Below, in pieces: positions 62,980-63,095 of a stretch of DNA of 64,000 nucleotides (positions within the stretch are counted from its first letter, which is position 1; each line of letters opens with the position of its first letter). The stretch lies in the IMG/VR virus record IMGVR_UViG_3300028283_000231; one strand, given 5' to 3'. The notes beneath the pieces were generated by a model, which made no database searches, had not been told where the DNA came from, and worked only from the letters and a program-made list of their open reading frames with translations. Position numbers and translations under genes: made by a program. The stretch is from a virus (taxonomy: Duplodnaviria; Caudoviricetes).

Positions 62980-63095
62980 GGGGAAGTAGCTCAGTTGGTA
63001 GAGCAACGTAAAAACGTAATTTGGCATAAATTACTAACAGCAAAACAAAACGCCTTCTAAGCCGTTGGCCACTGGTTCGAGTCCAGTCTTCCCCT
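62980..63095 (+). tRNA. tRNA-Arg(TCT) with a 43-nt insertion (63009-63051) between positions 29 and 30
   Basis: GGGGAAG/CTTCCCC acceptor; removing the insert gives ACGGC-CTTCTAA-GCCGT. Confidence 0.75.

What the first reader, a model, noticed from the sequence alone, without database searches (positions are those of the whole stretch)
62980..63095. tRNA-Arg(TCT) interrupted in the anticodon stem by a 43-nt structured insert
Seen: the insert 63009-63051 sits between nt 29 and 30. It contains a 7-bp hairpin GTAATTT-GGCAT-AAATTAC followed by TAACAGCAAAACAAAAC; precise removal restores ACGGC-CTTCTAA-GCCGT. It is far too short for a group I or II intron and shows no obvious bulge-helix-bulge. Established: bacterial tRNA introns are normally self-splicing group I/II introns in the anticodon loop. 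From memory, similar hairpin-plus-ACAGCAA inserts occur in tRNA genes of other large phages, but I have not verified this. Inference: a minimal intron removed by an unknown nuclease and Rnl1-type ligase, or a retained extra arm that shields the tRNA or gates its activity.
Basis: partly seen in the sequence, partly recalled or inferred. Interest (0 to 1): 0.75.

Follow-up and report, generated by a model that had tools for sequence, protein, structure and literature searches.

The report
tRNA-Arg carrying a Ro60-type protein handle
The 43-base insert in this giant phage's arginine tRNA gene is neither junk nor a classical intron: it is a conserved "handle" that many phages graft onto tRNA-shaped RNAs encoded beside a Ro60-like RNA-binding protein, so this is most likely an undescribed tRNA-mimicking partner RNA of an RNA-repair or counter-defence particle.

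Summary
Window 62980-63095 is a tRNA (Rfam 51.3 bits). A 43-nt insert (63009-63051) sits between nt 29 and 30, and removing it restores ACGGC-CTTCTAA-GCCGT.

The insert is not unique. The 735-kb relative LR756501 has it in tRNA-Arg and, as a homologous 68-nt insert, in a tRNA-Met. T4-like Aeromonas phages (Aeh1, PX29, Ah1, phiAS5, phiWae14), phage LAh_6 and many IMG/VR contigs carry the same module inside tRNA bodies: a 7-bp helix, 2 nt, then ACNGCAA. The helix covaries.

- A model built only from other phages hits the window once (63012-63046, 34.5 bits).
- In 14 of 35 such RNAs, removal restores a canonical anticodon arm (0.37 expected). The set covers eleven anticodons.
- Ten of 17 IMG/VR loci also hold a DUF2828 gene, usually just downstream. 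My model of that protein matches Ro60.
- Short handle RNAs with no tRNA body also display anticodon-arm mimics.
- Several genomes keep an intact tRNA with the same anticodon.

Best reading (about 0.6): a retained handle on a tRNA-shaped, Y-RNA-like partner of a Ro60-like protein. Excision as a new intron type (about 0.2) is not excluded. Other agents of this scan had already noted the ACAGCAA handle family on other DNA.

The parts
62980..63008 (+). 5' part of the tRNA body: acceptor 5' strand GGGGAAG, D arm, nt 26, and ACG (nt 27-29, the proximal 5' strand of the anticodon stem)
   Evidence: Rfam tRNA 51.3 bits. Sequence. Identical in LR756501. With the 3' part, 85% identical to the Aeh1 handle-tRNA body, loop left out.
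63009..63015 (+). 5' linker TAAAAAC. The junction reads CG|UA, as in most family members.
   Evidence: It is 2 nt longer in LR756501.
63016..63022 (+). Handle helix, strand A (GTAATTT)
   Evidence: Pairs with 63028-63034. Compensatory changes against the Aeromonas phage homologues. Covered by the R1 match.
63023..63027 (+). Closing loop GGCAT. It begins with G, as in most members.
   Evidence: T to C change in LR756501.
63028..63034 (+). Handle helix, strand B (AAATTAC)
63035..63043 (+). Dinucleotide TA plus the invariant ACAGCAA box
   Evidence: ACNGCAA is invariant in 27 of 27 aligned handles of other phages. The dinucleotide varies: TA here, TC in LR756501.
63044..63051 (+). 3' linker AACAAAAC
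63052..63065 (+). Distal anticodon hairpin GC-CTTCTAA-GC, then CGT, which pairs with ACG of 63006-63008
   Evidence: Restoration test. The same stem and insertion site occur in tRNA-Met of LR756501 and tRNA-Gln of L107.
63066..63095 (+). Variable loop TGGCC, T arm, acceptor 3' strand CTTCCCC, discriminator T (no encoded CCA)
56530..57336 (+). Context only: Rnl1-type RNA ligase gene
   Evidence: PF09511, 51.2 bits. Homologue in LR756501 at 213951-214514.

Best explanation
The insert is a 'handle': a 7-8-bp clamp helix, two nucleotides, the box ACAGCAA and A-rich linkers. This module is shared by an RNA family that is absent from Rfam 15 and is genetically tied to Ro60-like DUF2828 proteins, often with RtcB, in many phages. 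Here it is grafted into the 5' strand of the anticodon stem (between nt 29 and 30) of a complete tRNA-Arg(UCU)-shaped RNA.

Proposed working:
1. The RNA is transcribed with the tRNA array and trimmed at its ends like a tRNA.
2. ACG/CGT and GC/GC stack into a normal Arg(UCU) anticodon arm.
3. The handle projects from the gap in the 5' strand and binds the phage's Ro60-like ring protein.
4. The particle presents a tRNA or anticodon-arm mimic to enzymes that act on tRNA (host anticodon nucleases, RtcB, modification enzymes), as part of RNA repair or counter-defence.

Shown here: the anatomy, the family membership, the helix covariation, the selection on the exons, the genomic linkage to DUF2828, the Ro60-like predicted fold, and the anticodon-arm display on handle RNAs that have no tRNA body.

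Inferred: protein binding, retention of the handle in the mature RNA, and the decoy or repair role.
For: - Membership: model R1, built from 27 handles of other phages, hits only 63012-63046 in the window (34.5 bits, E 1e-5).
- Covariation: the homology-based alignment A2 gives 92% of cells paired against 78% in shuffles and 46-55% when partners are slid. The handle helix shows GC/UA and UA/CG double changes.
- Old lineage, not a recent insertion: the exons are at most 67% identical to any of 59 LR756501 tRNAs, but the body is 85% identical to Aeh1's handle-tRNA. Other handle-tRNAs are 58-72% identical to the resident tRNAs with the same anticodon.
- Selection: against LR756501 (about 90% identity overall), the 74-nt tRNA part has 2 changes. 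The helix, the ACAGCAA box and the 3' linker have none. The changes fall in the loop, the dinucleotide and the 5' linker.
- Linkage: DUF2828 lies in 41 of 118 IMG/VR loci that were fetched by the RNA pattern alone, and in 10 of 17 handle-tRNA loci, usually immediately downstream. Aeh1 and PX29 encode it about 3.5 kb upstream on the same strand. LR756501 has two handles just upstream of an RtcB-like gene and DUF2828.
- Fold: the AF2 model of DUF2828 from L131 has pLDDT 88.7, and the top 13 PDB matches are all Ro60, Rsr or TROVE (E 7.5e-8, TM up to 0.57).
- Against a splicing requirement: 75 short handle RNAs without a tRNA body have 0.51 seven-nt hairpin loops each (0.07 in shuffles). Of these loops, 61% have U at position 2 and a purine at position 6, among them CTTCTAA, CTTTTAA and CTCATAA.
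- Redundancy: an intact tRNA with the same anticodon coexists in six cases.
- The Aeromonas homologues keep the body, the handle and an encoded CCA, but have no canonical anticodon loop.
- Expression hint: an RNA-library contig covers 62944-63276 with the insert present.
- Literature: a Ro60-like gp130 that heads the tRNA genes of phage Bas63 counters the ppl defence. The authors suggest that some 'tRNA genes' are Y RNAs (bioRxiv 10.1101/2024.10.10.617714).
Against: - No binding or expression experiment exists. The RNA contig could come from DNA carry-over or from a precursor transcript.
- In 14 of 35 handle-tRNAs, including this one, the exons restore a perfect anticodon stem and a canonical loop (0.37 expected). 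The distal stem covaries (GGA/TCC against GGT/ACC). A spliced decoding tRNA would show exactly this.
- The 5' junction is a conserved CG|UA, which could be a cleavage signal.
- RtcB and Rnl1 ligases are encoded.
- In this lineage the DUF2828 gene lies more than 130 kb from the tRNA. I could not examine the window's own genome.
- Six of the seven helix pairs in alignment A4 were a selection criterion, so that count is partly circular.
Confidence: 0.6

Rival explanations
1. A new kind of protein-dependent tRNA intron. An unknown endonuclease, perhaps guided by the handle and its Ro60-like protein, cuts at CG|UA and at the 3' junction. RtcB, or Rnl1 after end healing, then seals the anticodon stem and releases a decoding tRNA-Arg(UCU). 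The handle would gate or protect the tRNA until then.
For: - Precise restoration of a canonical anticodon arm in 14 of 35 handle-tRNAs across Asp, Asn, Pro, Gln, His, Thr, Glu, Arg, Met and a doubtful Pro(CGG) call, against 0.37 expected.
- Compensatory change in the distal stem between L081 and L089.
- Conserved CG|UA at the 5' junction.
- Ligases are encoded: two RtcB genes in LR756501 and Rnl1 in the window.
- The exons are under purifying selection.
Against: - No bulge-helix-bulge and no splicing endonuclease gene (PF01974) in LR756501.
- No spliced joint in any of the four runs laid, though these were contigs only.
- The insertion site varies (27/28, 28/29, 29/30) and the linkers vary from 6 to 12 nt, so no fixed ruler is apparent.
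- Handle RNAs without a tRNA body show the same anticodon-arm mimics.
- Intact tRNAs with the same anticodon coexist.
- The Aeromonas homologues cannot give a canonical loop, yet are conserved.
Confidence: 0.22
2. A small mobile or repeat element inserted into a redundant tRNA gene and made it a pseudogene.
For: - The same module recurs in the spacers of the tRNA arrays of LR756501.
- Another tRNA-Arg(TCT) exists in that genome.
- The junction is the same (CG|TA) in different tRNAs.
Against: - No terminal inverted repeats or target duplication at the insert.
- The exons are conserved like functional tRNAs.
- Body and handle are conserved together across unrelated phage families (85% to Aeh1), while only 67% or less matches any resident tRNA.
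- The helix covaries.
- The RNA is linked to DUF2828.
Confidence: 0.04
3. An amber-suppressor tRNA(CUA) with a 45-nt intron at 30/31, as ARAGORN -i calls it in the window.
For: - ARAGORN -i output for the window.
- LR756501 has two tRNA(CTA) genes elsewhere.
Against: - That reading needs a T.C mismatch in the stem and a 4-nt variable loop.
- ARAGORN calls the homologous gene in LR756501 Arg(TCT).
- The ACG|GC reading gives five Watson-Crick pairs and matches tRNA-Met of LR756501 and tRNA-Gln of L107 at the same site.
Confidence: 0.02

Closest known systems
YrlA and other bacterial or phage Y RNAs with Ro60/Rsr (Rfam RF02553; Chen et al. 2014, PMC4201824; Thermus phage phiLo Ro60 with Yrl1/Yrl2, PMC12135203)
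   Same: A small RNA made of a protein-binding helix module plus a tRNA-like module. It is encoded on the same strand beside a ring-shaped Ro60-fold protein with a vWA domain, often with RtcB. Here too the partner protein folds like Ro60.
   Different: - The protein is DUF2828 + DUF7788 by Pfam, not TROVE, and has no match to PDB sequences.
- The RNA box is ACNGCAA after the helix, not GNCGAA/CGAA.
- There is no RF02553 match over the element.
- The RNA ends lie at an open acceptor stem and the handle is closed by a loop. That is the circular permutation of YrlA.
- A complete canonical anticodon arm is kept.
Archaeal tRNA introns at non-canonical positions (bulge-helix-bulge, EndA, RtcB; reviewed in PMC4090602)
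   Same: A short insert in the anticodon stem (29/30 is a known archaeal position). Removal restores the tRNA. An RtcB ligase is encoded in the genome.
   Different: No bulge-helix-bulge. No EndA-family gene in the relative. The insert carries a conserved protein-type handle that also occurs on RNAs that are not introns.
Group I self-splicing introns in bacterial and phage tRNA genes (PMC3984707)
   Same: An intervening sequence in a bacterial-virus tRNA gene.
   Different: The insert is 43 nt, against 200 nt or more. It lies in the stem, not the loop. It has no ribozyme core and no Rfam match.
Ro60-like gp130 of Felix O1-type phage Bas63 (bioRxiv 10.1101/2024.10.10.617714)
   Same: A Ro60-fold protein gene at the head of a phage tRNA array, shown to counter the ppl defence. 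The authors guess that some annotated tRNAs are Y RNAs. Felix O1 itself has a DUF2828 homologue in that position, with ACAGCAA handles between its tRNAs.
   Different: That work describes no RNA motif, no handle and no interrupted tRNA. I infer that gp130 belongs to the DUF2828 family from the Felix O1 arrangement; I did not test it.

Membership tests
ACAGCAA-handle RNAs linked to DUF2828 (absent from Rfam 15) | A 6-8-bp helix, then 2 nt, then ACNGCAA, then an A/U-rich linker | tested here: met
   63016-63051. R1, built from other phages only, scores 34.5 bits (E 1e-5) and is the only significant hit in the window.
ACAGCAA-handle RNAs linked to DUF2828 (absent from Rfam 15) | The helix is kept by compensatory changes | tested here: met
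   A2, aligned by homology: double changes at 2 of 7 pairs. A4: 98% of cells paired, and the one pair not used for selection is paired in 24 of 27. Six A4 pairs were selection criteria.
ACAGCAA-handle RNAs linked to DUF2828 (absent from Rfam 15) | A DUF2828 (Ro60-like) gene in the same genome, usually adjacent | tested here: inconclusive
Present in the 90%-identical relative LR756501 at about 341.4-342.2 kb, with two handles and an RtcB-like gene upstream, but more than 130 kb from this tRNA. The window's own genome is not held. Across the family, 10 of 17 loci have it.
ACAGCAA-handle RNAs linked to DUF2828 (absent from Rfam 15) | The RNA binds the DUF2828 protein | not testable with these tools
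   Needs EMSA or co-purification.
YrlA / Y RNA (RF02553) | Ro-binding motif GNCGAAN0-1G in the 5' strand of a stem formed by the RNA's two ends | tested here: not met
   The motif is absent and the ends lie at the acceptor stem. The only RF02553 match (62917-63004; 20.1 bits against a gathering score of 69, E 0.43) lies mainly on the neighbouring tRNA-Trp and spacer and reaches just the first 25 nt of this gene, not the insert. None in four DUF2828 loci.
YrlA / Y RNA (RF02553) | A tRNA-like domain with D and T arms | tested here: met
   Full match to the Rfam tRNA model, 51.3 bits.
Protein-spliced (BHB) tRNA intron | Bulge-helix-bulge at the two junctions | tested here: not met
   At most 1 of 4 central-helix pairs in any register.
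Protein-spliced (BHB) tRNA intron | A splicing endonuclease (PF01974) is encoded | tested here: not met
   No match in LR756501, while the controls were positive in four archaea. A host enzyme cannot be checked.
Protein-spliced (BHB) tRNA intron | Removal restores a canonical tRNA | tested here: met
   ACGGC-CTTCTAA-GCCGT.
Group I tRNA intron | A ribozyme core of 200 nt or more, inserted in the anticodon loop | tested here: not met
   43 nt, in the stem. No Rfam intron or ribozyme match at E up to 1.

The most novel reading that the evidence does not exclude
Handle-tRNAs are a third kind of tRNA intervening sequence. A Ro60-like protein holds the handle while the flanks are cut, and RtcB reseals the anticodon stem. 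The phage would then keep tRNAs in a latent form that anticodon nucleases cannot use, and release them on demand. A variant of the idea is that the particle is a decoy for anticodon nucleases that RtcB can reseal after cleavage.
Probability: 0.2. Interest if true: 0.9.

Novelty: new variant of a known kind. Interest (0 to 1): 0.72.

Why it matters
Genome annotations file these genes as odd tRNAs. Aeh1's is listed as tRNA-Val(CAC) and PX29's as a joined tRNA-Leu.

Recognising them as tRNA bodies or anticodon arms mounted on a protein handle links three things that have been studied apart: phage tRNA arrays, Ro60-type particles and RtcB repair.

It also gives cultured systems (Aeromonas phages Aeh1, PX29 and LAh_6; Felix O1 types) in which two questions can be tested: what Ro60-like proteins do in phage counter-defence, and whether bacterial viruses have a protein-dependent tRNA splicing or decoy pathway.

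The DUF2828 protein is in 709 of 50,697 phage records, so the system is common.

Tried and rejected
- No whole genome is held for the window, so I used the 90%-identical LR756501 instead.
- An IMG/VR scan for the exact exons with any insert gave 0 hits.
- An IMG/VR scan for the exact hairpin plus ACAGCAA gave two chance hits at a gene start.
- The metagenome scan gave one true hit (L009, the tRNA-Met homologue) and one chance hit (L010).
- ACAGCAAAAC alone is no more frequent in the window than chance.
- Read laying showed no joint at 63008/63052. The 'joints' with inserted letters at 63004-63005 are other organisms' tRNAs sharing the D and T arms. All runs were contigs, so the absence of a spliced form means little.
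- Bulge-helix-bulge rejected.
- Rfam gave no ribozyme, intron, YrlA or Class I RNA match over the element.
- A promoter or split-tRNA idea and an IS200/605-type element idea were considered (note). I dropped them because the helix partners covary at variable spacing on the tRNA strand, and because the insert has no element ends.
- phmmer of DUF2828 against PDB sequences found nothing useful. Only the fold comparison showed Ro60.
- The Aeh1 genome paper only lists 'Val CAC' (PMC1524935).
- Full-text searches for DUF2828 or for phage tRNA intervening sequences found no description.

Full report
**1. What is in the sequence**

Window 62980-63095 (+) reads as a tRNA: acceptor stem GGGGAAG/CTTCCCC, a standard D arm and a standard T arm. 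Rfam's tRNA model matches it end to end at 51.3 bits. Plain ARAGORN misses it.

Between ACG (nt 27-29) and GC (nt 30-31) lie 43 nt, at 63009-63051. In order they are: TAAAAAC, then GTAATTT, loop GGCAT, AAATTAC, then TA, ACAGCAA, AACAAAAC. Removing them gives ACGGC-CTTCTAA-GCCGT, a perfect anticodon arm for Arg(UCU). The boundary is unique.

With its intron option, ARAGORN proposes a 45-nt intron and anticodon CTA in the window, which leaves a T.C mismatch. It calls the relative's copy Arg(TCT).

No bulge-helix-bulge can form. At most 1 of 4 central-helix pairs forms in any register.

**2. Whose genome, and is the insert conserved**

The window is about 90% identical, with one inversion, to LR756501 and LR756503. 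These are 735,411-bp uncultured phage genomes. Public runs that hold the stretch are lake and freshwater metagenomes.

LR756501 has the same gene with a 45-nt insert. Against the window:
- The 74-nt tRNA part has two changes, one in the variable loop and one at the discriminator.
- The helix, the ACAGCAA box and the 3' linker have none.
- The differences fall in the hairpin loop, the dinucleotide and the length of the 5' linker.

That is the pattern of a constrained RNA, not a decaying gene.

A second gene in LR756501, a tRNA-Met(CAU), has a homologous 68-nt insert at the same place. It has the same anticodon stem (ACG|GC ... GCCGT), the same helix and the same box. A lake metagenome contig (L009) carries that gene too.

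**3. The insert belongs to a repeat family of the tRNA arrays**

On the tRNA strand of LR756501, the motif 'helix strand, TY, ACAGCAA, A/C-rich' recurs in or beside the tRNA clusters. It also occurs twice just upstream of an RtcB-like gene and a DUF2828 gene.

In these spacer copies, the 7-mer before the box pairs with its complement 35-125 nt downstream. The pairs covary: AGATTAC/GTAATCT, AGAATAC/GTATTCT, GAATGC/GCATTC, GGATTAC/GTAATCC, AGATTGC/GCAATCT. In the two tRNA inserts the partner lies upstream and a short loop closes the helix.

So the tRNA insert is a circular permutation of the standard element. The local structure is the same, but the RNA ends are moved to the acceptor stem.

Earlier notes of this scan had already described an 'ACAGCAA handle' beside DUF2828 and RtcB in gut Clostridia and many phages. 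I treated that as a lead and tested it.

**4. The same chimera exists in unrelated phages**

The first blastn search had matched the whole 116 nt, insert included, to T4-like Aeromonas phages. Aeh1 has it annotated as a 122-nt 'tRNA-Val', and PX29 as a joined 'tRNA-Leu'. Ah1, phiAS5 and phiWae14 have it too.

These phages share the body (GGGGAAG acceptor, D arm, T arm, plus an encoded CCA). In the anticodon region they carry a handle: GGAATCT/AGATTCT or GGATTCT/AGAATCT, then TT, then ACCGCAA, ACAGCAA or ACGGCAA.

On the homology-based alignment, the cloverleaf plus handle is 92% paired. Shuffles give 78%, and sliding the partners gives 46-55%. The handle helix shows changes on both sides.

The window's exons are at most 67% identical to any of the 59 ordinary tRNAs of LR756501. 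The body is 85% identical to Aeh1's. Body and handle therefore travel together as an old lineage.

Phage LAh_6, of a different family, has another such RNA with a different body.

From these and the loci above I compiled 35 distinct handle-tRNAs with an open acceptor stem and a closed handle.

A covariance model built from 27 handles of other phages only finds one significant hit in the window, at 63012-63046 (34.5 bits, E 1e-5). The next best scores 16.5 bits.

**5. The anticodon arm is deliberately kept in many of them**

In 14 of the 35, precise removal of the insert restores five Watson-Crick pairs split between the two flanks, with a 7-nt loop that has U33 and a purine at 37. Shuffling the 3' linkers predicts 0.37 such cases.

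The restored anticodons are:
- Asp GUC
- Asn GUU (twice, with a GGA/TCC to GGT/ACC compensation)
- Pro UGG (twice)
- Gln UUG (same ACG|GC site as here)
- His GUG
- Thr UGU
- Glu UUC
- a low-complexity case that reads as CGG (Pro), which I regard as doubtful
- Arg UCU
- Met CAU

The insert always lies in the 5' strand, at 27/28, 28/29 or 29/30. The junction nearly always reads CG|UA. The linkers vary from 6 to 12 nt.

The Aeromonas and LAh_6 versions instead have a contiguous 5-bp stem, and the whole loop is replaced. No canonical loop can be recovered from them.

**6. Link to a Ro60-like protein**

- A tblastn search with seven DUF2828 proteins finds a homologue in 41 of the 118 IMG/VR loci, which had been fetched by the RNA pattern alone.
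- It finds one in 10 of the 17 handle-tRNA loci, typically starting 100-300 nt downstream on the same strand.
- Aeh1 and PX29 encode DUF2828 about 3.5 kb upstream of the handle-tRNA.
- In Felix O1 and a Klebsiella phage, the gene heads the tRNA array and handles lie between the tRNAs.
- The family is in 709 phage records. Some are annotated 'Ro-like RNA binding protein'.
- Pfam sees DUF2828, DUF7788 and a weak vWA domain. Sequence search of the PDB finds nothing.
- An AF2 model from a 23-sequence alignment (pLDDT 88.7, pTM 0.88) has Ro60, Rsr or TROVE structures as its 13 best PDB matches (E 7.5e-8, TM 0.54-0.57 over the full length).

**7. Spliced or retained?**

Nothing here shows splicing.
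- The only RNA evidence is a metatranscriptome contig that covers 62944-63276 with the insert present. This is weak: it could be precursor RNA or DNA carry-over.
- LR756501 has no EndA-family gene.
- It does have two RtcB genes, and the window has an Rnl1 gene at 56530-57336. So ligases are available.

Three observations favour retention.
- 75 short handle RNAs whose ends lie at the handle, and which have no tRNA body, carry 0.51 seven-nt hairpin loops each, against 0.07 in shuffles. Of these loops, 61% look like anticodon loops. Examples are CTTTTAA four times, CTCATAA three times and CTTCTAA twice. Others are T-loop-like. These cannot be introns, so displaying an anticodon arm on a handle is a general property of the family.
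- In six cases the same locus or genome also has an intact tRNA with the same anticodon: Arg and Met in LR756501, Gln in L107, Pro in L087, Thr in L131 and Glu in L164. The handle versions are only 58-72% identical to them.
- The Aeromonas lineage conserves the body, the handle and CCA without a usable anticodon loop.

I therefore put about 0.6 on a retained handle, meaning a tRNA-shaped, Y-RNA-like partner of the Ro60-like protein. I put about 0.2 on excision, a few percent on a pseudogene or the CTA reading, and the rest on something not considered.

**8. Comparison with what is known**

The closest system is Ro60/Rsr with YrlA. There, a tRNA-like module is joined to a Ro-binding stem, beside rsr and rtcB (PMC4201824). 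Thermus phage phiLo Ro60 with its Yrl RNAs is similar (PMC12135203).

This RNA is not a member of that family.
- Its box is ACNGCAA, not GNCGAA.
- RF02553 does not match the element.
- The protein is not TROVE by sequence.
- The topology is permuted.
- A true anticodon arm is kept.

A preprint on the Felix O1-type phage Bas63 shows that its Ro60-like gp130, which lies at the head of the tRNA genes, counters the ppl defence. It guesses that some tRNA genes are Y RNAs (10.1101/2024.10.10.617714). It describes no motif and no interrupted tRNA.

My full-text searches found no paper that describes the handle or these inserts.

**9. Verdict**

The thing is a new variant of the Y-RNA/Ro60 kind. It has an unusual and testable architecture, and it is widespread in phages.

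Noticed in passing
window 63257-63345: An 89-nt structured RNA between two tRNAs. It has a 13-bp terminal stem and inner hairpins (RNAfold -25.3). Against LR756501 it shows a compensatory change, CCAG/CTGG to CCTG/CAGG. ARAGORN and Rfam do not call it. It contains CTTCCAA, which resembles a Gly(UCC) anticodon loop.
   Followed up: partly
window 63500-63574: A 75-nt stretch that is absent from LR756501. It has a T-arm-like CATGG-TTCGAGT-CCATG and a GCGGG/CCCGC closing stem. It may be a tRNA fragment or a permuted tRNA-like element inserted between tRNA-Lys and the next tRNA.
   Followed up: no
window 63576-63662: An 87-nt tRNA-like RNA that ARAGORN does not call in the window, though it calls the LR756501 copy tRNA-Ser(cga). 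The variable-arm hairpin shows compensatory changes between the two phages (TCGA/TCGA against TCGG/CCGG).
   Followed up: partly
window 63179-63256: A second 'tRNA-His(GTG)' with an enlarged D loop and no encoded G-1, directly after a normal tRNA-His. Its identity is doubtful.
   Followed up: no
LR756501 690585-690737 (L006 586-739): Two adjacent tRNA(CTA) genes, possible amber suppressors, in the 735-kb relative. This hints at TAG recoding or suppression.
   Followed up: no
L056 4977-5010 (Vibrio phage PVA8): A handle sits directly in front of the DUF2828 gene. Its 3' helix strand overlaps the gene's ATG, so binding of the protein to its own leader could autoregulate translation.
   Followed up: no
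L107 2355-2556; LR756501 363100-363900: Handle RNAs tend to mirror their neighbours. The Gln(UUG) handle-tRNA lies 8 nt after an intact tRNA-Gln(UUG). In LR756501, a Gly(UCC)-like loop mimic sits next to the tRNA-Gly genes.
   Followed up: partly
LR756501 204050-204160, 204246-204333, 363384-363482: Other over-long tRNAs in the relative, with different inserts and no ACAGCAA box. ARAGORN -i reports a 37-nt insert in Leu(CAA), a 16-nt insert in a tRNA(TTA), and a 26-nt insert in Phe(GAA).
   Followed up: no
window 5898-5967: ARAGORN calls a tRNA with an undetermined 2-base anticodon next to a tRNA-Pro(GGG).
   Followed up: no
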